Part shown: one piece after another, positions 11,632 to 32,000 of the stretch
Layout: each line of letters begins with the position of its first letter
Numbering within the stretch: the stretch's first letter is position 1
Made by a program: the position numbers and the translations under genes
The notes under the pieces: model-generated
Databases searched by the model: none
What the model saw: the letters and a program-made list of their open reading frames with translations, nothing else
Told to the model about the DNA's origin: nothing
NCBI GenBank assembly: GCA_965230905.1
Contig: OZ246396.1
Coordinates: 960,001-992,000, forward strand
Source of the DNA: Candidatus Saccharimonadota bacterium
Lineage (GTDB): Bacteria; Patescibacteriota; Gracilibacteria; UBA1369; 2-02-FULL-48-14
Reading direction: 5' to 3'
DNA: 32,000 nt

Positions 11632-11970
11632 ATGCAATTTTCCAAAGAAATTTTGAAAGGGAGCATTGAAGTCATCGTACTTCAAGCCCTTCATGAACTG
11701 GGTGAGGCTTATGGATATCAACTTGTCACCGCCATTCAAGAAATGAGCGGAGGCACTTTTGAATTTCAAGAAAGCACTCTCTATCCCTTACTCTATCGTC
11801 TTGAGGAAAAAAGTTTTTTAAAAAGCCATCGTCAAAAGGCTCCCAGTGGCAAAGAAAGACGTTACTATTCCTTGACCGCTAAGGGCACGAAAGTACTTTC
11901 CGAGAAACGTTTTGAAATTGGTCAGTTTGTACTCGGGATGAACAAGCTTTTAAACCTTGGCCATGAATAA
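11632..11970 (+). CDS. PadR-family transcriptional regulator
   Basis: The winged-helix core VLQALHELGEAYGYQLVTAIQEMSGGTFEFQESTLYPLLYRLEEKSFLKS...RRYYSLTAKG is canonical PadR. The track start at 11467 is a non-ATG codon inside the palindrome, and ATG 11632 gives a typical 112-aa PadR. Confidence 0.85.
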   Translation: MQFSKEILKGSIEVIVLQALHELGEAYGYQLVTAIQEMSGGTFEFQESTLYPLLYRLEEKSFLKSHRQKAPSGKERRYYSLTAKGTKVLSEKRFEIGQFVLGMNKLLNLGHE

Positions 11971-18533: not shown

Positions 18534-18788
18534 TGTAAATTCTTTTTAGTGTGTAGGAATTTTCGACAGCCCGCTGAATGCTTCAGCATAGCCCCGGACT
18601 TTTTCTAGGTCAACGTGGATTGTTAAGCTTCACCAACAGTCAAAAAAGCGCTTGTAAGTCACACTTGCGGGACGTCGCGCTGCGCGTTAAAAAGGGAATG
18701 ACCCTTAACCCCTTGCCCCATGACGCCCGTAGCTTCTCTTCAAACAGTTTCTGCAGAGGAACTCCTGCGTGGAGTTCGCCGTGAACAC

Positions 18789-20153
18789 ATGTACGCCAAG
18801 TATCCTCGCAGCAATGTGACCAAAGAAATGGTCATGAAAATGGCAGAAGAACATGGCGTTCAATTTGTGGATATGCAATTCACGGATATGGATGGGATTT
18901 TGAAGGCCGTGACTTTGCCCGTGCACAAACTCGAAGATGGAATCGACAACAATGTGTGGTTCGACGGATCTTCCATTGCTGGATTCACCACGATCACGGA
19001 ATCGGACATGATTTTGAAACCCGACCTCGATACTTTTGTGGTTTTGCCTTGGACCATGGGCAGCGAAGACGTTACCGCGCGCTTGATTTGCGATGTGCTC
19101 AACCCGGATGGAACTCCATTTGAAGGTGACCCACGATACATTTTGCGCAAACAAATGGCGGAGGCGAAGAAGCTGGGACTCGAGGCGTTTATGGGACCTG
19201 AACTCGAATTCTTTCTATTCAAGTTGGATGCGAACGGGCAACCCACCACGGAGCCACACGACGGAGCCGGGTACTTTGATCAATACACCGATGAAGCACT
19301 CGGGCTCCGCCGCGATATGGCGTTTGCGCTCGACATGATGGGAATTGAAATCGAACGCATGCACCACGAGGTAGCTGCGGGGCAAAGCGAAATCAATTTT
19401 AAATACACCGACGCGCTTCACACGGCTGACAATGCGATTTCTTACAAACTTGCCCTCAAGGCCGTGGCGAAGAAGCACGGACTCCACGCTACTTTTATGC
19501 CAAAACCCGTATTCGGAATCAATGGAAGCGGAATGCACGTGCACCAATCGCTGTCTTCCACAACAGATGGTGTGAACCAATTTTATGATCAAAAAGGAAC
19601 TTATGGACTTTCTACTTTGGCACAGAGCTATATCGCGGGACAACTCATGCACATACGTGCCATGAACGCTGTGATGAACCCAACGGTGAACTCTTACAAG
19701 CGACTCGTGGTGGGTTACGAAGCGCCGGTGAACGCCGCGTGGGGACAACGAAACCGAAGCGCTTTGATCCGCATTCCTCGCATCAGTCCTGCGGTGGCCG
19801 CCAAGGGGGCGCGCATTGAACTCCGCTGCCCAGATCCTTCTGCCAATCCTTACTTGGCCTTTGCCGTGATGATGGCGGCCGGTTTGGACGGAATTAAGAA
19901 AGGCCTGGTAGCGCCTGCCCCTGTGGAAGAAAACATTTGGGAACTTAGCCCCAAACAGATGAAGAAAATGGGAATCCGCACGGTGGCCGGAAATCTGAAA
20001 GAAGCCATCGATGAACTCGAAAAAGATGAAGTGATCCGAGGCGCGCTCGGTGAAGCGACTTTCCAAAAGTTCTACGACGCCAAACTCAGCGAATGGGAAT
20101 CATTCCGCACCAGCGTTTCTAAGTGGGAGACCGATCGATATCTGGGTTGCTAG
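18789..20153 (+). CDS. glnA: glutamine synthetase type I
   Basis: Motifs FDGSSIAGF, GSGMHVHQS and NPYLAFA. The start is moved to ATG 18789 because MYAKYPRSNVTKEMV...VQFVDMQFTD aligns with the Bacillus GlnA N-terminus (MAKYTREDIEKLV...IRLQFTD, as I recall it). The track start is 18720. Confidence 0.9.
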   Translation: MYAKYPRSNVTKEMVMKMAEEHGVQFVDMQFTDMDGILKAVTLPVHKLEDGIDNNVWFDGSSIAGFTTITESDMILKPDLDTFVVLPWTMGSEDVTARLICDVLNPDGTPFEGDPRYILRKQMAEAKKLGLEAFMGPELEFFLFKLDANGQPTTEPHDGAGYFDQYTDEALGLRRDMAFALDMMGIEIERMHHEVAAGQSEINFKYTDALHTADNAISYKLALKAVAKKHGLHATFMPKPVFGINGSGMHVHQSLSSTTDGVNQFYDQKGTYGLSTLAQSYIAGQLMHIRAMNAVMNPTVNSYKRLVVGYEAPVNAAWGQRNRSALIRIPRISPAVAAKGARIELRCPDPSANPYLAFAVMMAAGLDGIKKGLVAPAPVEENIWELSPKQMKKMGIRTVAGNLKEAIDELEKDEVIRGALGEATFQKFYDAKLSEWESFRTSVSKWETDRYLGC

Positions 20154-21137: not shown

Positions 21138-22031
21138 TTATTTGTCGCAAAAGAAAGCGACGCCGGAGGCATTTTCGCCGGTCCATTCCTTCAGCTCACT
21201 CGATCTCTTCAACTCACTCCAAAGATCCGTCAAAAATTTCTGTGGTGTGGAGGCACGGGGTAGCTTGCTTGCGTACCAGTCTTCGAGACGCACATTTTCC
21301 AAACCGTCGGTTCCAGCCACCAAACGATCTCCTCTACTGAGCTGTAATTCTGCCATATAGGGGCTTACAAACGCTTCTGAGGGGTCAGTCTCTCTACCAG
21401 AATGTAGACCGGTGAGCGTTCGTGCGTCTACAGCGCTCCTTTTTGAATTTTCTATTAAGGAAAAAATGCGCCTGCGTTCTTCGCTTAATCTGGCCAAGAC
21501 TTCCCGATGTCCATCTGGTCCTTTTAGATCACGGCCTTCGTGATACCACCAGGTTCTAAACTCTTCGGCGCCTTTGGTCTCCGGCACCAGAGCGGGATGT
21601 GGGAAAAAATCTCCATTCAAACGAGTGTCTGGGTCGCCCACTCGGTGGGCTTGAACGGTGAGATCGTCGATGAGCATGCAGAGACCCGTTGCGCGGCCGG
21701 GGTGCGATGAGTAGTGTTTGTTTATAGATTCACGGATGTGATGTTGCATCTCACGCACATCTACCGTGCCGGTTTCCTTGAGTTGCTCCTGAGCGTATTC
21801 ACTGCCATATTTAACGACGTATTTTGCCATTTCACCTCCACCTATGGGGAAGTGCACGCCATCTGAAGAACAGATGACGAGTTTGCCATCGTGTACACCG
21901 GCCCAGAGTGCATCCAGTTGACTGGGGCGACTTCCTTGAATATAAAGCAGTGCAGCTTTTCCGCCCTTCAGTTCAATGGGGTTGCTGACTGCATCGTGGT
22001 CGCCGGGTAAATAGTGGTATTCTTTATCCAT
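21138..22031 (-). CDS. divergent PP2C/SpoIIE-like phosphatase-fold protein (tentative)
   Basis: 297 aa with four PP2C-like motifs in order. SSDGVHFPIGGGEMA resembles xDGMGGhxxGexA. ATGLCMLI...AHRVGDPDTRL resembles GTTL...ahvGDSRxyl. GDRLVAGTDGLENV resembles gDxlLLCSDGL. ENASGVAFF resembles DNiTvvv. An insert of about 70 aa lies between them. Confidence 0.5.
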   Translation of the reverse strand: MDKEYHYLPGDHDAVSNPIELKGGKAALLYIQGSRPSQLDALWAGVHDGKLVICSSDGVHFPIGGGEMAKYVVKYGSEYAQEQLKETGTVDVREMQHHIRESINKHYSSHPGRATGLCMLIDDLTVQAHRVGDPDTRLNGDFFPHPALVPETKGAEEFRTWWYHEGRDLKGPDGHREVLARLSEERRRIFSLIENSKRSAVDARTLTGLHSGRETDPSEAFVSPYMAELQLSRGDRLVAGTDGLENVRLEDWYASKLPRASTPQKFLTDLWSELKRSSELKEWTGENASGVAFFCDK

Positions 22032-22374: not shown

Positions 22375-25300
22375 CTAGTTCACACCTTTTTCCGTGTTTA
22401 TATTCACGTAGTCAGAGAGGGCAGGTGGCGTATTCAAGATGATACGGCTGTCGTACTTGATCACAATTCCTCCTCCATCAATGGTGGGGGGACCTACGTA
22501 CTTGGCACGTTCGATCAAGGTTTGGATGTTTCCGTAGAAGGAACCTTCCACCGTGAGCTGTTCGTCCACGGCGCTGCGTTCATCGCCGTCGAATTTTTGA
22601 TCGGTGTAGTACACTCCAACCAGTTTTTGCGCGCTATCGTCGATGTAGATGTCTCCATCCTGAACCACGAAGGCGATGGAAGGGAGGTTTTTGTAGTCGG
22701 AAATGTTTTGGGTTTTGGCGTAGCTGATATCACCCGTGAGAACCAAGTCTCCGCCTTTCACAATCACGGTCCAAGCGCCGGCTGGAACCTCGAGTTTACC
22801 GAGGGTCATTTTTCCATCGTTGCTTTGAGAAGCATCGAAGTAAAGAATGTTGCTATCACGGTTGTTGCTGTTGGTGAGAGCGGCTGTGAGTTCAGACCAA
22901 GACGTGTAGGTGCTGTCACCAGGCGCTTGAGAAGTATCCGCATTGCGGGTGGCCTGGCTCAAGTGGTCACTGGTGGTGCTTTCCACACTGGTTTTTGCCC
23001 AGAGGTCGGTCACTTTAGCCACGATTTCACACACGTAGGAACTGAGGTTTCCAATCAGATTGTCTTCATCATCGTCACAGAATGAAACGGTGGAAGTGGA
23101 GTAACTGCTCATGTACTCATCCGCTGTGTCGTTTTGGTTGTTGTCGCCTTCTTGCAAGATGATGAGCGAGTCCACGTTGCGGTAGTCGCTGCTGGTGGCG
23201 TCGTCTTCATCCACGAATATGCAGGCGATGTCGGAACCGCCCTGAAGGGCCACTTCCAAGTACACGTCTCCGGCGTTTTGTGTCATGAGGTAAGAACAAA
23301 GCACTACGAGTTTTGCGCTATCGGTGAGCACAGCCGATTCAAAAGCTTCCACGCTAGCGGTGTTTTCAAATTCTTCCGTGAGACATTCGTCTGCATTATC
23401 ACCACAGTTGAGGCCAGAGTTGATGACTCCCACGTAACGGATACGAATCGTGGCATCATCGCCGTAGTCGTCTTGTACCGTTCCTGCGTTTTCAATCACT
23501 ACTTCACCGTCTTTTTCAGGCAAGAAATTGGGATTGTAACAAACGCCTTCGCTTTCTAGATCGTCGTCTTTGTCGTATTCACATTCTTCGATGAGAACGG
23601 ATTCTTGGTTGAGGCCGACAGGATATTTGACGTAAGCGACGAAGCTCTCATAGTTGTTTTTGAATGCATCGGATCCCACATAGTTGGCGATGCTTTGTGA
23701 ATCTTCTTCACGACACTTGGCTGGGGTTTCACACCCGAATCCCATGTTCGTGATGAGATTGTACTCATCATAGGCTCCGTTGAATTTACTTTTCACGAGT
23801 TCTTCGTAAGTGGTCGCAAGGCGAACGTTTCCTCCTGAATCACTTCCATCTCCTTTAGTTCCTTCAAGTTCAAGTTCAGAGCCCCACATGGCGTCGGTGA
23901 ACGTGATGGCTTCTTCTTCGCCGGCAGGGTTGTATTCTAGGGTGTAGAACGCGCGGTCTTCATCGTGAGAGAAGAAGACGCCTTCGTCGGTGTAAGAATT
24001 CTTTTCGGATGCGAAGTTGAAGGTGTAGATGAATTTTTCAAAAGTTCCTACTTCCACTTCTTCGGTGTCGAGTTCTTCACAGACTTTACCCGCTTCACTC
24101 ACCGTGATTTCGGAATCTTCACACACTTCGTTGAAGGTGATGTCGATACAATTTCGGGTTTCACCGTCTTCAAAGGCAACGATGATTTCCTCACAACCTT
24201 CGTAGGTGACGCCATCGTATTCCCATTCGCCGTCGTATTTTTCGTCGTCGCTATCTCTGGCTTCGTAACAGATTTCGATTTCACGTTCATCTTCTCCGTT
24301 GCTATCCAAACAGAGTTCAACCTCGGGAACGTCTTCACAGTTGTAAGTTTGAATTTCTTCAGGGAATTCGATTTCTGTACAAAAGGGAACTTCTGGGGTG
24401 GGTTGAGTGATGCTGAATTGGTCGCTACAAATGAGGGCGTCGTTTTGGATGTAAGCACGAACGATGTCGTCGGCTTGGCCGCCGGTGTAGGTGAAGGTCA
24501 CGGTGCTGGAAACTCCAGAAACCGCGATTTCCAAACGTCCATCGCTGTAACCAGAGTTGGATCCGTCTGAGTAGTGCAGTTGTCCAGATCCGCTCTTAGT
24601 TATGATGAGCGTACCCGTCCATGTTGAATCGCTGCCTTGTACCACTACGCTTCCGTTGATGGTTCCGGCGTCCACGTCATCTGCTTCCATTTCCACACTA
24701 TCGGGGCTGAGTTCAAGGTCTTCACAAATCAGACCAGGTGCGGGTTGAGTGATGGTGAAGACATCGCTACATAGCGTTTCATCTCCACTGATGTAAGAAC
24801 TCACCACGTCTCCGGCGTGTCCGTTTCGGTAGAACACCGTTACGTTCATAGTGCTTCCGCTCACAGGGATTTCAAGGTGTCCGTCTCCGGCGGTGGAAGG
24901 GCTTCCGTCGCTGTAGAACAAGGCACCGGTTCCGGTGTGTTCCACAATCAAGGTTCCTGTCCATGTGGCGTCTTCACCTTGTACGGTGATGATCACGGGA
25001 ATGTTTCCGGCATCCACGTCGGTAGCCGCCATGGTGTAGGAATCAGGGCTCATTTGAAGGTCCACACAAACGGGAGCTTCTTCTTCTGGAGGAGGAGGGA
25101 GGATTTCTTCGTCGTTACATGCAGGCCTATCGCCGAGCACAAATACAGAAAGTTCATTGCCGGCTTCATAATTTTCCCAGCAAATGGTTCCGGTATAAGA
25201 AGTGAATCCGGTGAAAGCCAAGTTGGAAGGGTTGCCGGTGCTGCTTCCGGCGGTTTCGTTCATGGTCATGGTCAAGTTACCCGTGTTTGCGGTGCGGGTG

Positions 25301-27354
25301 GAATCGGTGAATCCGTTTGCGATCAAACGGGCGGTGTAGGCAGCGTCAGATGTATTTAAGCTGTAATCCCAGCACACGGTGGTTTCACCATAAAGCGTTT
25401 CAAGGTCGGCGTCATCGGTGAGATCGATGCTAGTCGTGCTTCCATCGTCGTTGGTGATATAAGGAGTTCCCAAGGCAAAGTCTTCACAAACCGGAGCGAC
25501 GTCTTCACAGGTTTCGCTGTCCAAGGAGTCGATACAGGTAGGGTCGGTGGTGTCCATTACTTGAATGGCATCACCATCTTCACCGGTGTAATAAACCACC
25601 ATAGGAGGAGAGCTGACGAGTACACTTCCGGTTCCAACCGTAGGTCCACCTGGGGTGAAGGCAAAGGTTCCGGCGGGGTTTGTGCTGGTGACAATCCAAG
25701 GTCCAGTGCTGGGTGCGCCGCTGCTCATGAAGCTTTCCCAACGGATTTCCACATCTTCCACGCTCATTTCTTCACAGGTGAGTGTTTCGTTGCTTGGGAT
25801 GATGATTTCTAACTCTTCACAAGTCAGCTCCACTGCATAGCTGAAATAGTCGCTACAGAGTCCGGCTACGTCGTCTTCAGCTTCCACCCATACGCTGGCA
25901 CCTTCGTCGCTTTGGTAAGAAGCCACGGTCCAGTCGGTGGTGGTGTAAGGTTGAGTGTTTCCATCAAAAGTGGAATCGGTATCGGTGGAGTTGTAGGTCA
26001 CGGAGTAAGGCCAGTCTTCACCGGTGCTTGCTTCCGCTTCAATTTCCACGGGCATATCCACGTCTCCACTGCTGATGAAAGCAAAGCTTGAAGGATCGGT
26101 GATGTTGAGGTCGCTGCAGTAAGGGAATTCCACTTCCACTTCACAGATTCCGGTTCCTTGGTAATCCACTCCGTCGTAGTCGCTCACGTAAGCCGTGATG
26201 CGGTCTCCGGGCAGGGAGTTTCGGTATTCAATTTCGGTGTCGTTGCTGGCAACGGGTCCGGCGTTTCCATTGGAAAGGTTCAACGCGCCTCGGTAACGAA
26301 TGTCTCCCGTGGCAGCGCTTCCGTCGTATTGGAAGGCTTCGTAAGTGACTTCAATATCATTAGTAATATCGTCTCCGTTGCTGTTGGTAGCGGTGAGAGT
26401 AAACTCAGTGTCACTAAAGATATCGCTCACGGTTAAGCTGCTGGGGTCGATGGAAAGCGTGGCACAAGTGGGACCAGCTCCTTCACAGGGCGTCCAAATG
26501 GTTCGTAGACGTCCGTTGAGACCGTACCAAAAAATATAATCGTCGTCTGGATCCACTCCCACGTCGTCGGTTCCATCTTTATCGGTATCTACTTCAATGG
26601 GATAGACGTTCTCATAAGCTCCAATATCCCCACGGTCATCTGGGTCTACGCTGAAATATTCTACTTTTGCCCAACTTTCCGTGGTAGCGGTTTGAATGGG
26701 TTTTGAGTAATCTTCTGGTTCAAAAATAATTCCTTCTGATTCAAATTCCCCCGCATCGAGCCAAGGATAGTTTTCGATTTCATCGGGAGTGTCTGTATTG
26801 TAACGCCACACAATTCCACGAGGGCTTCCAGATACCCAGTCTAGGGTTTCAAATGTGATTTCGGTTCCGTTCTTAGCAGTAGAAGTGGCGAGTAGGTCAC
26901 CATCAGAAACGGTGCTTTTATCAAAACTACAATCGAGGTAGGTTCCTGCTCCGTCCGTACATACCATGCCCTTAGTATCGATGTTGGTCCAAAAATCCTC
27001 AGTGGCAGGAGTTCCTCCTGGATAATCTGAGTCCAATACAATCGCAAAAGCATAGATAGGAGCTCTAAACTCCTGATCGGCGGTGTTTTCTGAGTCGTTG
27101 TAGTAGTAGTAAAGGTGTTCCACTCCAGCACAATAATTGATGGTCAACTCTTCTTCGTCGTGTTCAGAATGAATTTCTGGTACATCTACGTTGTCCTCAT
27201 TGCTGTACTCAGCCGAGCTCCAAGCTCCCAGAATCGGGGTACCTGCTGAGTCTTTTACGGGTCCTCCGCCAAAGCCCACTGCATCAACCAGTGGTGAACT
27301 GAGTCCCAGGGCGAGACCTAAGGTGAGTAGAAGAAGGTAGCTTTTTTTAAACAT
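22375..27354 (-). CDS. giant secreted, highly acidic, Cys-bracketed multi-module surface protein (unknown family)
   Basis: The ORF is open to 27381. I prefer ATG 27354, which gives MFKKSYLLLLTLGLALGLSSPLVDA|VG, a classical Sec signal peptide, and clears the upstream mini-ORF stop. The protein is D/E-rich. It has a Ca-binding-like motif DTDKDGTDD and six tandem modules of about 100-140 aa, each opening with C-x-[DE]-L... and closing with ...[IL]C[SE]D.... No C-terminal anchor motif is visible. Confidence 0.85.
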   Translation of the reverse strand: MFKKSYLLLLTLGLALGLSSPLVDAVGFGGGPVKDSAGTPILGAWSSAEYSNEDNVDVPEIHSEHDEEELTINYCAGVEHLYYYYNDSENTADQEFRAPIYAFAIVLDSDYPGGTPATEDFWTNIDTKGMVCTDGAGTYLDCSFDKSTVSDGDLLATSTAKNGTEITFETLDWVSGSPRGIVWRYNTDTPDEIENYPWLDAGEFESEGIIFEPEDYSKPIQTATTESWAKVEYFSVDPDDRGDIGAYENVYPIEVDTDKDGTDDVGVDPDDDYIFWYGLNGRLRTIWTPCEGAGPTCATLSIDPSSLTVSDIFSDTEFTLTATNSNGDDITNDIEVTYEAFQYDGSAATGDIRYRGALNLSNGNAGPVASNDTEIEYRNSLPGDRITAYVSDYDGVDYQGTGICEVEVEFPYCSDLNITDPSSFAFISSGDVDMPVEIEAEASTGEDWPYSVTYNSTDTDSTFDGNTQPYTTTDWTVASYQSDEGASVWVEAEDDVAGLCSDYFSYAVELTCEELEIIIPSNETLTCEEMSVEDVEIRWESFMSSGAPSTGPWIVTSTNPAGTFAFTPGGPTVGTGSVLVSSPPMVVYYTGEDGDAIQVMDTTDPTCIDSLDSETCEDVAPVCEDFALGTPYITNDDGSTTSIDLTDDADLETLYGETTVCWDYSLNTSDAAYTARLIANGFTDSTRTANTGNLTMTMNETAGSSTGNPSNLAFTGFTSYTGTICWENYEAGNELSVFVLGDRPACNDEEILPPPPEEEAPVCVDLQMSPDSYTMAATDVDAGNIPVIITVQGEDATWTGTLIVEHTGTGALFYSDGSPSTAGDGHLEIPVSGSTMNVTVFYRNGHAGDVVSSYISGDETLCSDVFTITQPAPGLICEDLELSPDSVEMEADDVDAGTINGSVVVQGSDSTWTGTLIITKSGSGQLHYSDGSNSGYSDGRLEIAVSGVSSTVTFTYTGGQADDIVRAYIQNDALICSDQFSITQPTPEVPFCTEIEFPEEIQTYNCEDVPEVELCLDSNGEDEREIEICYEARDSDDEKYDGEWEYDGVTYEGCEEIIVAFEDGETRNCIDITFNEVCEDSEITVSEAGKVCEELDTEEVEVGTFEKFIYTFNFASEKNSYTDEGVFFSHDEDRAFYTLEYNPAGEEEAITFTDAMWGSELELEGTKGDGSDSGGNVRLATTYEELVKSKFNGAYDEYNLITNMGFGCETPAKCREEDSQSIANYVGSDAFKNNYESFVAYVKYPVGLNQESVLIEECEYDKDDDLESEGVCYNPNFLPEKDGEVVIENAGTVQDDYGDDATIRIRYVGVINSGLNCGDNADECLTEEFENTASVEAFESAVLTDSAKLVVLCSYLMTQNAGDVYLEVALQGGSDIACIFVDEDDATSSDYRNVDSLIILQEGDNNQNDTADEYMSSYSTSTVSFCDDDEDNLIGNLSSYVCEIVAKVTDLWAKTSVESTTSDHLSQATRNADTSQAPGDSTYTSWSELTAALTNSNNRDSNILYFDASQSNDGKMTLGKLEVPAGAWTVIVKGGDLVLTGDISYAKTQNISDYKNLPSIAFVVQDGDIYIDDSAQKLVGVYYTDQKFDGDERSAVDEQLTVEGSFYGNIQTLIERAKYVGPPTIDGGGIVIKYDSRIILNTPPALSDYVNINTEKGVN
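24385..25068 (-). repeat. tandem duplication of a 342-bp (114-aa) coding module
   Basis: Module aa 772-885 (CVDLQMSPDS...TWTGTLIVEH...YSDGS...LCSDVFTITQPAP) aligns with aa 886-999 (CEDLELSPDS...TWTGTLIITK...YSDGS...ICSDQFSITQPTP). Roughly half the positions are identical by eye, with no gaps needed. Confidence 0.85.
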
Positions 27355-27358
27355 AGAT

Positions 27359-27496
27359 TTAGAATTCATTGGTTGAGTCATTTGGGCTTTCCGCTTGTTC
27401 CACTACGGAATCAATCGTTGGTTCTTTCTCAGTTTTTTGAGAGCAACCAGGAATCAGGAGGAAGCTGAGTAAAAGTAAAATGGAGATTTGTTTCAT
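27359..27496 (-). CDS. 45-codon lipoprotein-like mini-ORF (not in the supplied ORF track)
   Basis: Hand translation gives MKQISILLLLSFLLIPGCSQKTEKEPTIDSVVEQAESPNDSTNEF*. This is a signal peptide plus a lipobox-like L-I-P-G-C. Its ATG lies 9 nt after the stop of the upstream giant ORF, and its stop lies 4 nt before ATG 27354 of the downstream giant ORF. Confidence 0.4.
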   Translation of the reverse strand: MKQISILLLLSFLLIPGCSQKTEKEPTIDSVVEQAESPNDSTNEF

Positions 27497-27505
27497 ATGT
27501 ATGTT

Positions 27506-30500
27506 TTAGAATTCAGTATTTTGTTCAGTTTCAGATCCGCTGCCTTCCGTTTGTTGACCAATGAAGTCACTTGGCTTTTCACCAGGTTGCAGCGCGTGCT
27601 GAGTGTCTTCATCTTCTTGTGCAGGCAAATTGATATCGGCCAATGGCTTGATTGGAATCAAGCTTGGTTCGATGCGGAACTGCATAGCACGCACTTGTTC
27701 TTGTGAGCTCATTCCTTGGCCGATGGTTTCTCGTGTGGAAGCGCTCTTTACCTCTCTAGTAGTAGGAGCAAGCCATTTCAGCTCCGGAGTGAGTCCACAT
27801 ACCAGGTTTAAACATTTTTCGTAGAGCCCAGTGCTCACCTCCCATTCCAGGGTAACTGGTACTCCATGGATCATAGTGACTACTCCAGTGCTACCTGTTT
27901 CCATGTCGGCGTTGTTGAGCAGCCGAGCTACGTCTCGAGCGAATTCGGCAGCCAACTCGGGAAAGAGGGCACCGTTTCCGGAACGCACCATGGCACGGAT
28001 CTTAGCCCCGTCGTCGAGGCCATAAATTTCGAGTGCGTGGCTTGCCAAGAGAGCTCCACCCATCGTTAGCATGGCTTGATCAAAAGTTACGGTCGCTTCA
28101 TTCAAATGAGTTTCCGGCCACTTCATGCTTAAGATTGCTTTGGCCATTTCTTTTACCGCTGTAATATTAGCTGAGTCGTTTTGACCGGCTTCGTCGAAGC
28201 CCATGGCGGCCAAGGTCTTTTTTGGATTTGCCACGTCCCACTCAATAGGGGCCACAATGGATCCGTGTACTTCCGCATCGTAATAACCTTGCAAAAGCTG
28301 AGGCCCGTTTTCATTGATGCTGATGAAGAACATGGTTCCTTCTTCAAAGGTTCCATTCTCGAGTCTATCCTTATTATCTTCCAAATATTTAATTAGGAGA
28401 CCGCTGAAATCTTTTGAAATTTCCTGCAGACGTTTTTTATTCCAAGCCAAAGGCATATGATCTCTATCGGGCCGGCTTCTCTCCATGGCGAACTGACGGG
28501 CGTAGTAAATTTCTTCAATGCTGGGGTCTGTTACGCCCTTTTCTTGATAGATTTCAATCACTCTATCGTTGATCTTCTTATTGTCTCCTGTGCTAGCTAA
28601 AAGATCGTAGTTATATCCTTCTGTATCGCTATCGCCATTTAGTAATAGTTCAGCTACGGCTTGAGCTTTTTCTTTATCCAAACCGTCGAATAGTTTAACT
28701 TCACGAACTCCGGCACGAGCTTGCACGTCACTGATACGAACTTCCCGAACGTTTTGATTCATGCCTTCTTTGCTGAGGTCGCCCAGCTCCATGACTCCAC
28801 TGTCCAGGCGGCTTTGAGCTTCCGGACCGGTCATGATCATCTTTTCAGCACCAGGTGCGGCTGCGTTGTCTACCAGGGTGGTGTTGCCCTTGTAGTCGTA
28901 TTGAGTCCAGGTGAGGTAGTTTCCGCTGTTGGCAATGATTTCTCCCGCATCAGCGTCTGGTTTGCTGGTGATCAAAATGATGACCTCGTCATCGCTTCCT
29001 TGAGCGGCGGGCATGGCTAAGATTCGAATCACCAGGTTATCGGCGCTGTCCAAATTGAGCGCCAAGCCATTGGGCCCGTCTTGAATGGTTTCAATGCCGG
29101 AGCGTGCGTCGGTGTAAAGACGTACGTTTCCATGGATTTCTTTGAAATCGATGCTCGTGAACAGATCTCCAGGCGTGAGGATGGCGTCGTCGGCGATTCC
29201 ACGAGCCATGGCGTCTCTAGCTGCTTGAGCTTCTGCGTCGGCTTTGGTGAAGGCTGCCTCTCGGGTTGTATCCTCTCCATTCCAGAGCACTTCATCGCTC
29301 ACGGTTATTTTCACCCAATCGGCTTCGGGTGCTTTATAATTTTCAATTCCCACGGGAAGACCGGTGCGCATGGACTTGGCCACTTGATCGGGTGTTTCCA
29401 GCGGAGGTACGTATAAAGTGATTGCGCGGTATCCAATTCCAATGGTGATGTAAGGCCCCACGGCAAAACCTCCTGCTTCCAGGCCCACGGCTGCGGTGAG
29501 TCCAAAGCTCACAATTTTGATTTGGTGGAGCACAAAGTCCAGGGCATCTTGAGATTCTTCTCGGCCCACAAAAGTTTGGGTCACCGCCACTTCAATGCGG
29601 CCGTTGATGTAGCGTTCGTACTGTCTTATGAGCATCTTTTTAAGGACCGGGTCTACATTGAGTGAATTGATATCTGCTATGGCTTCCTGCTCAGTTACTT
29701 TCATGCTTTCGCTATGAGCTTTCTTAAAGTCACGGATCTTTTTTTGCAGTCGTGCACTGTGGTTGATGTCTACGCTTGCTTCCACGAAAGCTAGATTTCC
29801 GTTTTCGCGAAGTCCCACACCTCCTCCTCCTCCCAGGGCCCAGGTTCCGTCTTTATTCATGTCGTGACTCGCGTGAAATCCAAAGTTAGGTCCGAGGTAG
29901 CCCTCTTCGCTGAGTCCAAAGTTGAGTTTGGCGTAGGCTTCCAAATGGGTGCGGCCTTCTTTCCCAAGATCGATGCGGTATACAACTCCCGCGCTGGTGC
30001 GCAGTACTGGCTCAAGCGTGTTTGCGCTGATGGTCCATTCCAAAGAAAGGTTCCCAGGAATTTTGTCGTGCAGTATTGGAATACCGAATCCTGCCGCGAG
30101 CGCTCCGTTCACGTCCATACCATTTTCTCCAGGGGAGCCAAACAGTATTCCGCTGAACATCAGGTAAGCTCTTTGTTCGAGTTCGGCGGTGAGTTCTGCT
30201 TTTTGTTCGGCGGTGAGATTTCCACCGACAGCGGCTTGGTCAGTCAGGGCTGCGGCTACTTCGCTAGCAGCCTCGTGAGCATCTGCTTGGGTTTTTGCGG
30301 TCTCTACCTTTTGGTAAACTCCCATCTCAGCAGAGGCAAAGTACATCGCTCCAAAACGAACGGCGATGATTTGATCTTCCGTGAGTTTGAAGTTCCCATC
30401 TTTCAGTTGAGCCATGGTCACTTCGGGAGCGGTCAAGGTATGGGTGAATCCATACGCTTGGTGCTCTGCATTCACCATTTCACGGCCCAAGTTCAAGTAG

Positions 30501-32000
30501 TTGTTGAGCAGGGCGAGGTAGGCACCTAAATCAGGAGACGCCAGCATTTTATCAAAGGCGCGAGAGTGAGAAATCACTTCACGTTCTCCATAGTATTTAT
30601 ATCCTTTCACCGCATGAGAGGTGCTGGCGGGGGTCATCCAAGAATCGGCCGTTATAATGGGGCGATCCGCTGGGGCGAGGGCCCACCAAATATTTTCCAA
30701 GGCATTTCCAGAAACGGGAGGGCCGTAGCTGTCTCGGTCAAAGATTTGATCGCTGACGCGAGCCATGTCCTTTTTGGGTCCCTCGTATTTTTTTGCTTCG
30801 CGCATGCGGCGGTACTCGTCGGGTGAGCTCTCGGTTTCTTCGGCTTCGTCCAGTTTTTCGAGCAGGGTTTTAGCCGCTGCTTTAAATTCATGTATATAAG
30901 GAAGGCTGTCGTTGAGTTCGCTTTCGGGCTTTCCATAAACGGCCAGGGCCATTTCATTGAAGCTCATTGTGAAACGGCCTCCATGGCTGAAGATATCTCC
31001 GTGGAGTTTTTTCCACATGTTGCGGTTGTCGATGAGGCCCACTTGCTTGCGGTGAATAGCAGCCATCATACGAATGGCATCGTAAATATCCTGACCATTT
31101 TCAAGGTACTTGATCTTTGCGATGGCTTCGTAAGAATTTTCTCCGCGGAAATGCTCCGGCACGTCCACGTCTTTTCCTTTTAGTTCATTCAGCGGGGTTG
31201 TGGTGACCAAGGCGATGCTGTCTGAAGCGCCCTCGGGAAGAGGCAGGGGCTCGTCTACATCTGTTCGATATTCGTCGGCTTCATCGGTATAGTGGAGGAT
31301 ACCTTCTCGTGCATCACTGGCCCTTTGCGCTTCTATTCGAGCGTATTCCTCTGGGTTGTTTTCTTTCAACCACTCGTCGGTTGCTACAAAGTTAGGGTTG
31401 GTGGCTTCTCGAGGCGTTGAGGCAGCGGCAGCCACGGCAGCCACCGTAGCGGCTTCATCTTTAGGTGCACTGATCGTGTACCCCTGCAAAATTTCTACAT
31501 AAGCCCCTTTACCTCCCGGTTTACTATAGGTTTTTCCATCGCTGTGAAGGAAGGCGGGGGTTACGGTTCCATTGGTTTTCGTCACCGTAACAAAATCACG
31601 GTTGGTGGCTTGTAAAATGGTACCTAAGGTCAGTTTTCTTTCAGCAAATTTATTGATGGCCTTTGTTTTAGGATCGCGGAAATCTACGGTGAAAGTCTCT
31701 CCAGCGGGCAAATGGCTGTCTACCCCTTGAAGTGCTTTCCCTTCTGCGTCACGCACAAAGAGCAGGGCATAGGTCTTTAAAGCTTCGGTGTCTTCCACCT
31801 TGTGAGCAGCCATTAACTCTAATTTTTGTTCGGCTTCGTAGCGTGCTCGGGAGAGTTCTCTTATTTCGCTTGGACTGACGATGAAATCTTCGTAGGCGGC
31901 GTCGAACTGAGTCCAGGCTATTGCGATCTCCTCTGGGGAAAGCATGTCTGGCAAACGCTCAATCGCTGCCACCTGTTCGAGGGCATGATCTAGGTTGTCC
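27506..32000 (-). CDS. giant protein of unknown family, 5' end outside the window
   Basis: The track start at 31972 is a GTG, but the frame stays open to position 32000 (upstream codons read ...DNLDHALEQ). The protein is therefore >=1497 aa and probably N-terminally truncated by the window. I recognise no catalytic or family motif. It has a central Gly/aromatic-rich stretch of alternating hydrophobicity and an acidic, disordered C-terminal tail. Confidence 0.85.
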   Translation of the reverse strand, partial: DNLDHALEQVAAIERLPDMLSPEEIAIAWTQFDAAYEDFIVSPSEIRELSRARYEAEQKLELMAAHKVEDTEALKTYALLFVRDAEGKALQGVDSHLPAGETFTVDFRDPKTKAINKFAERKLTLGTILQATNRDFVTVTKTNGTVTPAFLHSDGKTYSKPGGKGAYVEILQGYTISAPKDEAATVAAVAAAASTPREATNPNFVATDEWLKENNPEEYARIEAQRASDAREGILHYTDEADEYRTDVDEPLPLPEGASDSIALVTTTPLNELKGKDVDVPEHFRGENSYEAIAKIKYLENGQDIYDAIRMMAAIHRKQVGLIDNRNMWKKLHGDIFSHGGRFTMSFNEMALAVYGKPESELNDSLPYIHEFKAAAKTLLEKLDEAEETESSPDEYRRMREAKKYEGPKKDMARVSDQIFDRDSYGPPVSGNALENIWWALAPADRPIITADSWMTPASTSHAVKGYKYYGEREVISHSRAFDKMLASPDLGAYLALLNNYLNLGREMVNAEHQAYGFTHTLTAPEVTMAQLKDGNFKLTEDQIIAVRFGAMYFASAEMGVYQKVETAKTQADAHEAASEVAAALTDQAAVGGNLTAEQKAELTAELEQRAYLMFSGILFGSPGENGMDVNGALAAGFGIPILHDKIPGNLSLEWTISANTLEPVLRTSAGVVYRIDLGKEGRTHLEAYAKLNFGLSEEGYLGPNFGFHASHDMNKDGTWALGGGGGVGLRENGNLAFVEASVDINHSARLQKKIRDFKKAHSESMKVTEQEAIADINSLNVDPVLKKMLIRQYERYINGRIEVAVTQTFVGREESQDALDFVLHQIKIVSFGLTAAVGLEAGGFAVGPYITIGIGYRAITLYVPPLETPDQVAKSMRTGLPVGIENYKAPEADWVKITVSDEVLWNGEDTTREAAFTKADAEAQAARDAMARGIADDAILTPGDLFTSIDFKEIHGNVRLYTDARSGIETIQDGPNGLALNLDSADNLVIRILAMPAAQGSDDEVIILITSKPDADAGEIIANSGNYLTWTQYDYKGNTTLVDNAAAPGAEKMIMTGPEAQSRLDSGVMELGDLSKEGMNQNVREVRISDVQARAGVREVKLFDGLDKEKAQAVAELLLNGDSDTEGYNYDLLASTGDNKKINDRVIEIYQEKGVTDPSIEEIYYARQFAMERSRPDRDHMPLAWNKKRLQEISKDFSGLLIKYLEDNKDRLENGTFEEGTMFFISINENGPQLLQGYYDAEVHGSIVAPIEWDVANPKKTLAAMGFDEAGQNDSANITAVKEMAKAILSMKWPETHLNEATVTFDQAMLTMGGALLASHALEIYGLDDGAKIRAMVRSGNGALFPELAAEFARDVARLLNNADMETGSTGVVTMIHGVPVTLEWEVSTGLYEKCLNLVCGLTPELKWLAPTTREVKSASTRETIGQGMSSQEQVRAMQFRIEPSLIPIKPLADINLPAQEDEDTQHALQPGEKPSDFIGQQTEGSGSETEQNTEF

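What the first reader, a model, noticed from the sequence alone, without database searches (positions are those of the whole stretch)
22375..32000. Two giant ORFs bridged by a lipoprotein-like mini-ORF: candidate uncharacterised envelope or host-contact system
Seen in sequence: three co-directional minus-strand ORFs with almost no spacing. First is a >=1497-codon ORF that is still open at the window edge. Nine nt later comes a 45-codon ORF encoding a signal peptide with a Cys lipobox. Four nt after its stop comes a roughly 1660-aa protein with a classical Sec signal peptide. Together they take up about 30% of an otherwise housekeeping, highly compact window. In roughly 3,200 codons I find no motif of a known enzyme, transporter, secretion-system component, RHS/YD or toxin family, pilin, S-layer (SLH) domain, or sortase/LPXTG anchor. 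Inference: this looks like a dedicated surface apparatus made of a large exported adhesin-like protein, a small membrane-tethered lipoprotein and a very large partner. In a small-genome, possibly episymbiotic bacterium it could mediate cell-cell or host attachment. The functional reading is speculative. The operon architecture and the lack of recognisable domains are the observations.
Basis: partly seen in the sequence, partly recalled or inferred. Interest (0 to 1): 0.8.

Follow-up and report, generated by a model that had tools for sequence, protein, structure and literature searches.

The report
Giant-protein pair with tiny lipoprotein
A group of tiny-genome Peribacteria keeps two unrelated ~1,660-residue proteins of unknown family with a 45-residue lipoprotein gene between them, and parts of the locus vary in step between genomes, which suggests (not proven) a cell-surface structure whose pieces dock together.

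Summary
On the minus strand lie ORF-A (27506 to beyond 32000), a 45-codon lipoprotein ORF (27359-27496) and ORF-B (22375-27354/27381), tightly packed. The source contig (a 1.30-Mb Peribacteria MAG) shows ORF-A is 1,669 aa and has no signal peptide.

Neither giant matches Pfam, NCBIfam, PHROGs, PADLOC or PDB sequences. An exhaustive scan of 1.84 billion proteins found only 22 ORF-A relatives.

All 24 distinct related loci have both giants. 23 of them have the mini-lipoprotein.

- **ORF-B:** Sec-exported, very acidic, 38 Cys, with tandem beta-sandwich modules.
- **Tail resemblance:** the C-terminal tails of ORF-A and the mini-lipoprotein resemble each other within a locus (p about 5e-5).
- **Link to ORF-B:** tail type tracks one of three types of the ORF-B N-terminal domain.
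- **Hypervariable block:** ORF-A, the mini-ORF and the ORF-B N-domain vary strongly (20-40% identity where neighbouring holA is 80-86%). The rest of ORF-B is conserved.

Best reading (inference, confidence about 0.4): ORF-B is a surface fibre docked by its N-domain on tail peptides of a lipid-anchored peptide and of ORF-A. How ORF-A sits relative to the membrane, and what it does, remain unknown.

The parts
27506..32000 (-). ORF-A, giant protein without a signal peptide. The window holds residues 173-1669 plus the stop. The full 1,669-aa gene is L001:4840-9849.
   Evidence: The family has only 22 representatives among 1.84e9 proteins. There are no Pfam, NCBIfam, PHROGs, PADLOC or PDB matches. 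The AF2 model is poor (pLDDT 54.5) and has no PDB fold match below E 0.04.
29759..30121 (-). ORF-A residues 799-919: Gly-rich region with an alternating pattern, modelled as eight long beta-strands at low confidence.
   Evidence: The alignment of 25 homologues keeps the G-rich alternating pattern. AF2 places strands at 341-448 of the model with pLDDT 30-40. Weak Foldseek matches to membrane beta-barrels have probability 0.35 or less; this is a lead only.
29411..29536 (-). ORF-A residues 994-1035: the only hydrophobic stretch and the best-conserved motif of the closer (alpha-subfamily) homologues (..GGFAVGPYITIGIG..TLYVPPLETP).
   Evidence: The maximum Kyte-Doolittle 19-residue mean is 1.63. 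Invariant columns G1015-P1042. Alignment.
27509..27568 (-). ORF-A C-terminal tail (..DFIGQQTEGSGSETEQNTEF*). It is disordered and acidic, and it ends in Phe.
   Evidence: The tail resembles the tail of the mini-lipoprotein of the same locus. A terminal Phe occurs only in loci with ORF-B N-domain type I.
27359..27496 (-). Mini-lipoprotein gene: 45 aa, comprising a signal peptide of 17 aa, the lipobox Cys18 (27443-27445), and a mature peptide of 28 aa ending ..DSTNEF*.
   Evidence: An equivalent ORF of 43-64 aa sits between the giants in 23 of 24 loci, always with [GAS]-Cys. The start lies 2-28 nt after the ORF-A stop. The stop abuts or overlaps the ORF-B start.
22375..27354 (-). ORF-B, an exported giant protein: 1,659 aa from ATG 27354, with an alternative ATG at 27381 giving 1,668 aa.
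   Evidence: It is identical to NCBI hypothetical protein AAB383_00420. It has 38 Cys, 321 D+E against 66 K+R, and no hydrophobic segment other than the signal peptide.
27280..27354 (-). ORF-B Sec (type I) signal peptide MFKKSYLLLLTLGLALGLSSPLVDA|V.
   Evidence: Read from the sequence. All homologues have an equivalent n-h-c region.
26455..27192 (-). ORF-B N-terminal domain (residues about 55-300). It is hypervariable and falls into three types; the window copy is type I. Residues V78 (27121-27123), R97 (27064-27066) and W287 (26494-26496) co-vary with Phe-ending tails.
24355..26502 (-). ORF-B residues about 285-1000: about six Cys-bracketed modules of 105-140 aa. The last two are 55% identical to each other. 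The part that was modelled (from residue 469) folds as beta-sandwiches.
   Evidence: Segment BLAST. The AF2 model of residues 469-1668 has pLDDT 70-90 over these modules. Foldseek matches to strings of Ig/MG/DUF11-like domains reach E 1e-13 to 1e-21 but TM-scores are only about 0.1.
22378..24087 (-). ORF-B conserved C-terminal region (residues 1090-1659). It is beta-rich, with a nearly invariant end ..LNTPPxLSEYVDINTEKGVN*.
   Evidence: Invariant columns. Identity between related loci is 62-76%, and 96% over the last 100 aa. No fold assignment was possible.
21138..22031 (-). Downstream 297-aa ORF. It is present after ORF-B in only some loci and shows weak sub-threshold PP2C/SpoIIE similarity. 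Whether it belongs to the system is doubtful.
   Evidence: E 0.045-0.073, below the cut-offs. It is present in L004, L011, L019, L024 and L029, and absent in L003, L005, L030 and L031.

Best explanation
This is a three-gene envelope module specific to one lineage of Peribacteria.

**Proposed parts**
- **ORF-B** is exported by Sec and folds outside the cell. It forms an acidic, disulfide-stabilised fibre made of an N-terminal head domain, about six Ig-like beta-sandwich modules and a conserved C-terminal region. It has no membrane or wall anchor of its own.
- **The mini-ORF** yields a lipid-anchored peptide of about 28 residues whose free C-terminal tail is a docking peptide.
- **ORF-A**, a 1,669-aa protein without a signal peptide, carries a similar tail at its own C-terminus.

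**Proposed mechanism (inferred)**
- The N-terminal domain of ORF-B binds these tails.
- The lipopeptide thereby tethers the fibre to the membrane.
- ORF-A competes for, or joins, the same site.
- The specificity of this pairing differs between lineages: there are three N-domain types with matching tail types.
- In the window's type, a terminal Phe with its carboxylate may be read by Arg97 and Trp287.

**Shown here**
- The genes and their export signals.
- Conservation of the triad.
- The resemblance of the two tails.
- The co-variation and the mosaic structure of the locus.

**Inferred, not shown**
- Physical docking.
- Surface location of the assembly.
- Any role of ORF-A outside the cytoplasm.
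- Any role in attachment to a host.
For: **1. The triad is real and conserved.**
- A giant of 1,390-1,744 aa lies directly upstream of every ORF-B homologue in the 19 loci with full flanks, and all of them belong to one family. The five further loci fetched with short flanks also have an upstream giant running in from the flank.
- The mini-lipoprotein is present in 23 of 24 loci.
- In the loci whose flanks were fetched and hold enough sequence, the triad sits between tpiA/Wzy_C and holA.

**2. Tight spacing suggests translational coupling.**
- The gap from the ORF-A stop to the mini start is 2-28 nt.
- The mini stop abuts or overlaps the ORF-B start.

**3. ORF-B is exported and has no anchor.**
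- It has a type I signal peptide and no other hydrophobic segment.
- Its 38 Cys follow the mostly even counts seen across the family.
- D+E is 321 against K+R 66.
- The AF2 model has pLDDT 70.6 and shows tandem beta-sandwiches.
- Foldseek matches strings of Ig/MG-like domains of alpha-2-macroglobulin, integrin legs, S-layer proteins SbsC and EA1, PrgB and DUF11.

**4. The tails resemble each other.**
- The last 15 aa of ORF-A and of the mini-lipoprotein of the same locus score 15.8, against 12.6 +/- 0.66 for permuted pairings over 23 loci (p about 5e-5).
- The signal survives order-shuffling of the tail: 16.8 against 13.5 +/- 0.74 (p < 3e-4).
- Matching residues often use different synonymous codons.
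- The signal peptides of the mini-ORF and ORF-B show no such same-locus similarity (p = 0.93).

**5. The tails are linked to the ORF-B N-domain.**
- ORF-A ends in Phe in 7 of 7 type I loci and in 0 of 16 others.
- The mini-lipoprotein ends in Phe in 6 of 7 type I loci and in 0 of 16 others.
- The type I loci span both deep ORF-A subfamilies.
- Three ORF-B columns (V78, R97, W287) segregate perfectly with the Phe-tail set. Only 0.29% of equally dispersed sets of four loci reach three such columns.
- Five loci not used to form the rule fit it: two type I, two type II and one type III.

**6. The variable block behaves as a unit.**
- In the pair L006/L025 the body of ORF-A is about 50% identical.
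- The ORF-A tail, the mini-ORF and the ORF-B N-domain are replaced together (N-domain 20-24% identical).
- Similarity returns about 300 residues into ORF-B.

**7. The lipoprotein modification enzyme exists in the clade.** Lgt is reported in at least four copies in Ca. Peribacter riflensis (PMC4736985).
Against: - **ORF-A export:** ORF-A has no export signal in any homologue. It is Cys-poor (0.07-0.5%) whereas ORF-B is Cys-rich. Its tail may therefore be cytoplasmic and never meet ORF-B outside the cell.
- **Linkage:** the ORF-A 3' end, the mini-ORF and the ORF-B 5' end are about 1 kb of contiguous DNA. A recombining cassette alone could produce the tail/N-domain association.
- **Uneven tail resemblance:** it is clear in types I and II but weak in type III (within-type p = 0.10, 0.012 and 0.06). 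The tails are low-complexity.
- **Post hoc classes:** the Phe/Arg/Trp reading was chosen after looking at the data. The samples are small and phylogenetically structured.
- **Polarity:** conserved ends are usually the cell-proximal ones. Here the conserved end is the ORF-B C-terminus, not the N-domain proposed to dock on the membrane anchor.
- **Missing model and data:** the ORF-B N-domain was not modelled. No expression or localisation data exist.
Confidence: 0.4

Rival explanations
1. S-layer-like coat. ORF-B is the main lattice-forming envelope protein of these cells, held on the membrane by the lipopeptide. This would be analogous to two-component S-layers with a canopy protein and a separate anchor. 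ORF-A would be an accessory or unrelated protein.
For: - ORF-B is single-copy and syntenic in the loci examined, beside housekeeping genes where flanks were available.
- It is acidic and Thr/Ser-rich, and built from many beta-sandwich domains.
- S-layer proteins SbsC and EA1 are among the Foldseek matches.
- Its C-terminal region is very conserved, as expected for a self-assembling part.
- From my own knowledge: CPR cells imaged by cryo-EM have surface layers.
Against: - There is no SLH or other known S-layer anchoring domain.
- Its 38 Cys are atypical for S-layer proteins.
- The Foldseek TM-scores are about 0.1, so the match says only 'string of beta-sandwiches'.
- This reading does not explain why ORF-A carries the same tail, or why ORF-A is hypervariable.
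- Abundance could not be tested.
Confidence: 0.2
2. Effector-release module. ORF-A is a signal-less giant effector, possibly pore-forming through its central Gly-rich beta region and hydrophobic segment. It would be released by the mini-lipoprotein, in the way colicins are released by their lysis lipoproteins of about 28 residues. ORF-B would be a targeting or receptor-binding partner.
For: - ORF-A lacks a signal peptide, is acidic and Cys-poor, and has a conserved central hydrophobic hairpin and long helices.
- The mini-lipoprotein has a 45-aa precursor and a 28-aa mature form, the same sizes as colicin lysis proteins (my own knowledge).
- ORF-A is hypervariable: 20-27% identity where holA is 80-86%. 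That is expected for a molecule in an arms race.
- The cassette-like variation recalls polymorphic toxin loci.
Against: - The mini-ORF does not match Pfam Lysis_col or anything else.
- There is no toxin, Rhs, LXG or RTX domain, and no immunity-like gene.
- These cells have no outer membrane, which is the target of colicin lysis proteins.
- The beta-barrel-like matches are not significant (E > 1, probability 0.35 or less, low pLDDT).
- This reading does not explain the tail resemblance.
Confidence: 0.12
3. No complex. ORF-A is a fast-evolving cytoplasmic or membrane-associated protein that merely neighbours an exported surface protein. The tail resemblance and co-variation would come from linkage, short-tract gene conversion and low-complexity sequence.
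For: - ORF-A has no export signal and is Cys-poor.
- The co-varying elements are contiguous DNA.
- The tails are low-complexity, and a control region of ORF-A (positions -45 to -31) also scores weakly above chance (p = 0.03).
Against: - The order-shuffle control excludes composition alone.
- Synonymous differences at matching residues argue against recent conversion.
- The gene order is fixed and tightly coupled in all 24 loci, across holA divergence down to about 48%.
- Tail type follows ORF-B N-domain type across both ORF-A subfamilies.
Confidence: 0.2
4. Mobile or phage-derived module (a tail-fibre-like receptor-binding protein) or an anti-phage defence system.
For: The locus has a mosaic, hypervariable head region. 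Foldseek against BFVD gives matches to tail proteins carrying Ig-like domains.
Against: - No relative was found in 2.9 million viral contigs.
- There are no PHROGs or PADLOC matches.
- The chromosomal position between tpiA and holA is fixed, with no integrase or phage genes nearby.
- The BFVD matches have TM-scores of about 0.1 and are generic tandem beta-sandwiches.
Confidence: 0.03

Closest known systems
Large exported, often Cys-rich proteins of Candidatus Peribacteria (Anantharaman et al. 2016, PeerJ 4:e1607, PMC4736985)
   Same: The clade is the same. Both are very large proteins with signal peptides and predicted extracellular location, with no functional prediction. Both vary between strains and were suggested to act in attachment.
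   Different: That paper describes a 14-gene cluster with 7.2% Cys and other giants in Ca. P. riflensis. ORF-B has 2.3% Cys. In the riflensis gene table tpiA and holA lie 350 kb apart, with no such triad beside them. The mini-lipoprotein, ORF-A, the tail resemblance and the cassette structure do not appear in that paper's abstract or in the passages my term searches returned. I did not read the paper in full.
Two-component S-layers with a separate membrane anchor (e.g. Sulfolobales SlaA/SlaB); recalled from my own knowledge
   Same: A large exported multi-beta-sandwich protein without an anchor of its own is encoded next to a separate membrane-anchoring product.
   Different: There is no sequence or specific fold relationship. 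The anchor here would be a 28-residue lipopeptide rather than a coiled-coil transmembrane protein. ORF-B is Cys-rich. Lattice formation was not tested.
Colicin operons with lysis (bacteriocin release) lipoproteins; recalled from my own knowledge
   Same: A large protein without a signal peptide is followed by a gene for a lipoprotein precursor of about 45-50 aa with a mature part of about 28 aa.
   Different: No match to Pfam Lysis_col. There is no immunity gene. The organism has no outer membrane. The mini-lipoprotein tail co-varies with ORF-A and with ORF-B, a feature I do not know of in colicin systems.
Polymorphic toxin/immunity cassettes (CDI CdiA-CT/CdiI, Rhs, LXG); recalled from my own knowledge
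   Same: The end of a giant protein and the small gene that follows vary together as a cassette, out of step with the rest of the locus.
   Different: No toxin, Rhs/YD, LXG or haemagglutinin-repeat domains are present. Apart from the fast-diverging body of ORF-A, the part of ORF-A that changes together with the cassette is a disordered tail of a few dozen residues (the alignment breaks down over roughly the last 50 aa), not a folded toxin domain. The cassette extends into the N-domain of the next giant gene.
Gram-positive giant Ig-repeat adhesins (LPXTG-anchored; e.g. PrgB Ig-like domains among the Foldseek matches)
   Same: Both are Sec-exported and built from strings of Ig-like beta-sandwich modules with a distinct N-terminal head domain.
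   Different: ORF-B has no LPXTG motif, no C-terminal hydrophobic segment and no charged tail. No Pfam repeat family is matched. The disulfide-bracketed modules are a further difference.

Membership tests
Bacterial lipoproteins (signal peptidase II substrates): mini-ORF | N-terminal basic region, hydrophobic core, and lipobox [LVI][ASTVI][GAS]-Cys | tested here: met
   The window copy reads MKQISILLLLSFLL-IPG-C. In 23 loci position -1 is always G, A or S and is followed by Cys. Position -2 in the window copy is Pro, which is unusual.
Bacterial lipoproteins (signal peptidase II substrates): mini-ORF | Lgt and LspA present in the genome, and lipid modification shown | not tested
   Only 32 kb plus flanks of this genome were read. 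PMC4736985 reports Lgt in at least four copies in Ca. P. riflensis. Modification itself needs experiment.
Sec-exported proteins (signal peptidase I): ORF-B | N-terminal n-h-c signal peptide with small residues at -3 and -1 | tested here: met
   MFKKSYLLLLTLGLALGLSSPLVDA|V. Equivalent peptides occur in all homologues. This is judged by rule; no predictor was run.
Sec/Tat-exported proteins: ORF-A | N-terminal signal peptide or signal anchor | tested here: not met
   The N-terminus MAILCFNHGFQNPFENSRR is not hydrophobic. The frame cannot be extended upstream. The motif MA[IL]xC..G(F)..PF is conserved instead.
Sortase-anchored (LPXTG) surface proteins | C-terminal LPXTG-like motif followed by a hydrophobic segment and a basic tail | tested here: not met
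   ORF-B ends ..LNTPPALSDYVNINTEKGVN. It has no hydrophobic segment beyond the signal peptide.
S-layer proteins with SLH or other known anchoring domains | SLH, CWB2 or similar domain detectable by profile | tested here: not met
   No Pfam or NCBIfam match for the whole protein or for segments.
Ig-like / DUF11 / Big repeat surface proteins | Tandem beta-sandwich repeats that match the family profiles | tested here: inconclusive
   No Pfam repeat profile is matched. The AF2 model shows tandem beta-sandwiches, and Foldseek gives E 1e-13 to 1e-21 to such strings with TM-scores of about 0.1. The fold class is shared; family membership is not shown.
Colicin lysis / bacteriocin release lipoproteins (Pfam Lysis_col) | Sequence match to the family profile | tested here: not met
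   A Pfam scan of the mini-ORF at E <= 1 returned only a chance match to Sperm_Ag_HE2.
Polymorphic toxins (CDI, Rhs/YD, LXG, RTX/T1SS adhesins) | Characteristic repeats or N-terminal domains, a C-terminal toxin domain and a cognate immunity protein | tested here: not met
   No such domains were found in Pfam, NCBIfam or PADLOC. TIGR04393 T5SS/PEP-CTERM repeat scored E 0.0043 with 17 bits, below its cut-off of 23.
Phage tail fibre / receptor-binding proteins | Homologues on viral contigs, or phage structural genes nearby | tested here: not met
   None among viral contigs. No PHROGs match. The neighbours are housekeeping genes.

The most novel reading that the evidence does not exclude
The triad is a new kind of envelope-spanning contact device of an episymbiotic bacterium.

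- ORF-A, a signal-less giant with a Gly-rich beta-hairpin region and a conserved hydrophobic hairpin, leaves the cell by a non-Sec route or spans the membrane.
- It is coupled by a short C-terminal 'address' peptide to the head domain of the exported fibre ORF-B.
- A lipopeptide carrying the same address holds the fibre on the cell or regulates the hand-over.
- The exchangeable head/address cassettes, of three types, set partner or host specificity.
Probability: 0.12. Interest if true: 0.85.

Novelty: new variant of a known kind. Interest (0 to 1): 0.6.

Why it matters
Peribacteria have no cultured member and no known host. What they display on their surface is the main clue to how they live.

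- **A dedicated locus.** It takes about 10 kb of a 1.3-Mb genome. It is fixed in position in this subclade.
- **A signature of selection.** Part of it is exchanged or diversified far faster than the neighbouring housekeeping genes. Molecules that face a partner, a host or a phage typically behave this way.
- **A testable rule.** A C-terminal peptide motif is shared by a 28-residue lipopeptide and a 1,669-residue protein, and it is matched to the head domain of an exported fibre. Structure prediction of complexes or peptide-binding assays could test this without culturing the organism.
- **If confirmed:** this would be a simple way of tethering an anchorless surface protein through a lipopeptide. 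I do not know of a described precedent. It would also mark a candidate specificity determinant for CPR-host pairing.
- **If not confirmed:** the locus remains a well-delimited pair of orphan giant-protein families.

Tried and rejected
**Domain and fold searches that found nothing useful**
- Pfam on the whole proteins and on five segments.
- NCBIfam. The only result was a sub-threshold T5SS/PEP-CTERM repeat.
- PHROGs and PADLOC.
- Profile searches of both families against PDB sequences.
- Foldseek of the ORF-A model against PDB. There was no match below E 0.04, and the model is too poor (pLDDT 54.5) to trust.
- Foldseek of the ORF-B model against PDB and BFVD. It returned only generic strings of beta-sandwiches with TM-scores of about 0.1.

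**Searches limited by the tools**
A third word-indexed search added only two homologues.
- The viral-contig scan found no relatives. The metagenome scan added only one new usable locus.

**Explanations tested and rejected for the tail resemblance**
- Amino-acid composition alone: rejected by order-shuffling.
- Duplication or homogenisation of the whole gene junction: rejected, because the signal peptides of the mini-ORF and ORF-B are no more alike within loci than between them (p = 0.93).
- A shared nucleotide element such as a ribosome-binding site, or recent gene conversion: disfavoured, because matching residues use different synonymous codons and nothing is shared beyond the stop codon.

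**Other dead ends**
- Self-BLAST of ORF-A found no internal repeats, and ORF-A versus ORF-B found no similarity.
- The promoter and terminator scans did not differ from shuffled controls.
- Literature searches found no functional work on these genes.
- The idea that locus L005/L013, which lacks the mini-ORF, fused the lipobox onto ORF-B is weak. Its Cys sits in an atypical FTLC context ahead of a good type I cleavage site.

Full report
**1. Checking the observation**

- ORF-A occupies 27506 to beyond 32000. It has 1,497 codons in the window and is still open at the edge.
- Nine nucleotides after its stop, a 45-codon ORF begins at 27496 and ends at 27359. It encodes MKQISILLLLSFLLIPGC followed by a polar, acidic 27-residue tail.
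- ORF-B ends at 22375. Its first in-frame ATG (27381) overlaps the mini-ORF by 23 nt. The ATG 4 nt after the mini-ORF stop (27354) gives the 1,659-aa protein that the NCBI record calls.
- The rest of the window is housekeeping: H+-pyrophosphatase, RelA/SpoT, GatA, GlnA, a TrmB-like regulator and holA.
- Neither giant, whole or in segments, matches Pfam, NCBIfam, PHROGs or PADLOC. Family profiles match nothing in the PDB.

**2. Source and full extent**

- ORF-B is identical to hypothetical protein AAB383_00420 of a Patescibacteria MAG (GCA_038078855.1, contig of 1.30 Mb).
- That contig (locus L001) supplies the missing start of ORF-A. The protein is 1,669 aa and begins MAILCFNHGFQNPFENSRR.
- It has no signal peptide, and the frame opens only seven codons upstream of the ATG.
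- Upstream lie tpiA and a Wzy_C gene, transcribed divergently. Downstream lie a 297-aa ORF (weak, sub-threshold PP2C similarity) and holA.
- The unit is therefore ORF-A, the mini-ORF and ORF-B.

**3. Distribution**

- A scan of one genome per GTDB species found 21 loci. Nearly all are labelled Candidatus Peribacteria, Peregrinibacteria or Gracilibacteria.
- Contig look-ups and a metagenome scan added more.
- After removing duplicates I count 24 distinct loci.
- An exhaustive HMMER scan of 1.84 billion representative proteins with 1,200 residues of ORF-A found only 22 proteins. All are 1,363-1,721 aa or fragments.
- No relative of ORF-B was found in 2.9 million viral contigs.
- In Ca. Peribacter riflensis, the described member of the class, tpiA and holA lie 350 kb apart with no such genes beside them. 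The triad therefore belongs to a subclade.

**4. Conservation of the triad**

- In each of the 19 loci with full flanks, an ORF of 1,390-1,744 aa lies directly upstream of the ORF-B homologue, on the same strand. The five further loci, fetched with short flanks, also show an upstream giant running in from the flank.
- BLAST chains and an HMM connect the 19 into one very divergent family with two deep subfamilies.
- Between the giants, 23 of 24 loci have an ORF of 43-64 codons. Each has a basic N-terminus, a hydrophobic core, G, A or S at position -1, a Cys, and then a polar tail.
- The exception is L005/L013, where the gap is 11 nt.
- The mini start lies 2-28 nt after the ORF-A stop. The mini stop abuts or overlaps the ORF-B start.
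- This spacing suggests translational coupling. That is an inference.

**5. ORF-B**

- It has a type I signal peptide and no other hydrophobic segment.
- It has 38 Cys. Family members have 28-44, mostly even numbers.
- It has 321 Asp+Glu against 66 Lys+Arg.
- Residues 285-1000 form about six Cys-bracketed modules of 105-140 aa. The last two are 55% identical.
- AlphaFold2 on residues 469-1668 with 17 sequences gave a mean pLDDT of 70.6, with confident beta-sandwiches over the modules.
- Foldseek matched strings of Ig/MG/DUF11-like domains: alpha-2-macroglobulins, complement, integrin legs, S-layer proteins SbsC and EA1, and PrgB. E-values reach 1e-13 to 1e-21, but TM-scores are about 0.1.
- That result gives a fold class, not a family.
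- The C-terminal 570 residues are the most conserved part and end in a nearly invariant ..LNTPPxLSEYVDINTEKGVN. I could not assign their fold.
- There is no LPXTG, SLH or transmembrane anchor.

**6. ORF-A**

- No homologue has a signal peptide. Most begin with a conserved MA[IL]xC..G(F)..PF.
- Cys content is 0.07-0.5%, against 0.73% for the other genes of the window and 2.1-2.65% for the ORF-B family.
- The only hydrophobic stretch is residues 994-1035 (Kyte-Doolittle maximum 1.63). It is Gly-rich, interrupted by a charged residue, and the best-conserved motif among the closer (alpha-subfamily) homologues; in the beta subfamily only the alternating pattern survives.
- Before it lies a Gly-rich region with an alternating pattern (residues 799-919). 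AlphaFold2 draws it as eight long strands, at pLDDT 30-40.
- The model as a whole is poor (pLDDT 54.5) and has no PDB match below E 0.04. The faint matches to membrane beta-barrels are not evidence.
- I cannot say whether ORF-A is cytoplasmic, membrane-embedded or released.

**7. New observation: the tails resemble each other**

The last residues of ORF-A and of the mini-lipoprotein of the same locus are alike. Examples follow.

| Locus | ORF-A tail | Mini-lipoprotein tail |
|---|---|---|
| Window | ..EQNTEF | ..DSTNEF |
| L003 | PQGGQNSPR | PGGQESPMQ |
| L012 | GDTDF | PDTNF |
| L024 | SATLN | TTLNPE |
| L028 | DDASDF | DAAKSF |

- Over 23 loci the mean local alignment score of same-locus pairs is 15.8, against 12.6 +/- 0.66 for permuted pairings (p about 5e-5).
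- Shuffling residue order within the tails removes the excess: 16.8 against 13.5 +/- 0.74 over 18 loci (p < 3e-4). Composition alone is therefore not the cause.
- Matching residues often use different synonymous codons, and nothing is shared past the stop codon. This argues against recent gene conversion or a common nucleotide signal.
- The signal peptides of the mini-ORF and ORF-B are no more alike within loci than between them (p = 0.93). A homogenised duplicated junction is therefore not the explanation.
- Within types the signal is weaker (p = 0.10, 0.012 and 0.06).

**8. New observation: a mosaic locus**

- The ORF-B N-terminal domain (residues about 55-300) falls into three types. Types I and II are 36-52% identical to each other. 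Type III is 18-31% identical to either.
- These types cut across the relationships shown by the ORF-B C-domain, by ORF-A and by holA.

| Pair | holA | ORF-A | ORF-B N-domain | Rest of ORF-B |
|---|---|---|---|---|
| L024 / L019 | 86% | 12-27% | 26-32% | mostly 62-90% |
| Window genome / L004 | 80% | about 27% | 34-44% | mostly 52-96% |
| L006 / L025 | 57% | about 50% | 20-24% | mostly 54-76% |

- The 'rest of ORF-B' ranges leave out isolated low 100-residue windows (19-44%).
- DNA identity rises sharply about 900-1,000 nt into ORF-B in the three pairs examined.
- The locus therefore has a conserved chassis (the ORF-B modules and C-domain) and a hypervariable part (ORF-A, the mini-ORF and the ORF-B N-domain).
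- Divergence this far beyond that of the neighbouring housekeeping gene means allelic replacement or strong diversifying selection.
- From general knowledge, that pattern is typical of molecules exposed to partners, hosts or phages.

**9. Tail type follows the ORF-B N-domain type**

- ORF-A ends in Phe in all seven type I loci and in none of the 16 others.
- The mini-lipoprotein ends in Phe in six of the seven type I loci (in L020 the Phe is at -3) and in none of the others.
- The type I loci include both ORF-A subfamilies.
- Three ORF-B columns (V78, R97 and W287 in the window protein) segregate perfectly with the Phe-tail set. Only 0.29% of 1,399 equally dispersed sets of four loci show three or more such columns.
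- Five loci not used to form the rule fit it: two type I, two type II and one type III.
- In L006/L025, the ORF-A tail, the mini-ORF and the N-domain changed together while the body of ORF-A did not.
- The caveat matters. These three elements are contiguous DNA, so a recombining cassette would link them without any physical interaction. The classes were also defined after looking at the data.
- Linkage does not explain why the two tails resemble each other.

**10. Most likely mechanism**

I propose that ORF-B is an exported, disulfide-stabilised fibre of Ig-like modules. Its N-terminal head binds a short C-terminal peptide. That peptide is offered by a 28-residue lipid-anchored product, which would tether the anchorless fibre to the membrane, and also by ORF-A.

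- **Shown:** the genes, their signals, their conservation, the tail resemblance, the co-variation and the mosaic.
- **Inferred:** binding, surface location of the assembly, the reading of Phe by Arg97 and Trp287, and any role in attachment.
- **Main difficulty:** ORF-A has no export signal, and its Cys poverty sets it apart from the exported proteins of this clade.

I put this model at about 0.4. The rivals are:
- an S-layer-like coat anchored by the lipopeptide (0.2);
- no complex at all, with linkage and low-complexity effects explaining the patterns (0.2);
- a colicin-like arrangement in which the mini-lipoprotein releases a signal-less effector ORF-A (0.12);
- a phage or defence origin (0.03).

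**11. Comparison with what is known**

- Large exported, often Cys-rich proteins were reported in Peribacteria in 2016, without a function and with a suggestion of attachment (PMC4736985). The general kind is therefore known.
- This triad, its lipopeptide, the tail resemblance and the head/tail cassettes are not mentioned in the passages I read. Nothing came up in the other literature I could search.
- Membership of the LPXTG, SLH, RTX, Rhs/CDI/LXG, colicin-lysis and phage tail-fibre families was tested and not met.
- The Ig-like repeat fold class is shared, but no repeat family is matched.

**12. Verdict**

- The finding is a new variant of a known kind: a lineage-specific giant surface-protein locus of a CPR bacterium.
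- Two features are, as far as I could find, undescribed. They give a concrete, testable docking hypothesis.
- Interest is 0.6.

Noticed in passing
window 21138-22031 (-): A 297-aa ORF lies between ORF-B and holA. It shows weak, sub-threshold similarity to PP2C/SpoIIE phosphatases (E 0.045-0.073) and contains a ..LVAGTDGLENV.. motif. It is present after ORF-B in only some loci (L004, L011, L019, L024, L029) and absent in others.
   Followed up: partly
L001:4840-4885 (ORF-A N-terminus, outside the window); homologues: The extreme N-terminus of ORF-A carries a conserved motif, MA[IL]xC[FRI]xxG(F)xxPF, in most homologues of both subfamilies. It is not a signal peptide. Its meaning (secretion tag, modification site or interaction motif) is unknown.
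   Followed up: partly
L005:9983-10100 (same locus as L013 and L033): This is the only locus without the mini-lipoprotein ORF; the gap is 11 nt. Its ORF-B signal peptide, MKKILQILSIIISSFTLCVALASA|TDED, has a Cys in the hydrophobic core. That could be the remnant of a fusion of the lipoprotein signal to ORF-B, but the lipobox is atypical (Leu at -1).
   Followed up: partly
window about 27060-27125 (ORF-B residues 78-97) and homologues: Just after the first conserved Cys, types II and III of the ORF-B N-domain carry a His-rich motif (e.g. HEHTHYHTSTDT, WHAHGYENTT) followed by an N-x-S/T sequon. The window's type I copy has mostly lost the His residues (EHLYYYYNDSENT). This may be a metal site that differs between types.
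   Followed up: no
L009 (CAYHTX010000108.1): A 4.7-kb contig carries an ORF-B homologue (53% identity) but sits in a MAG labelled 'uncultured Gammaproteobacteria'. It is probably a mis-binned Peribacteria contig.
   Followed up: no
PMC4736985, supplementary gene table: In Ca. Peribacter riflensis, tpiA (gene 42) and holA (gene 343) are 350 kb apart and have other neighbours. The gene order around the triad is therefore specific to a subclade, and the type species may lack the triad.
   Followed up: partly
window 18720-20153 (+) versus L001:17202-18566: The glutamine synthetase ORF from the first ATG is 477 aa, but the public record aa. This is a start-codon discrepancy in an otherwise ordinary housekeeping gene.
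   Followed up: no
window 11957-13417 (+) and 13481-14434 (+): Two further ORFs, of 486 and 317 aa, have no Pfam match at E <= 1e-5. In the public record the first carries only a faint HAAS hit. I did not examine them.
   Followed up: no
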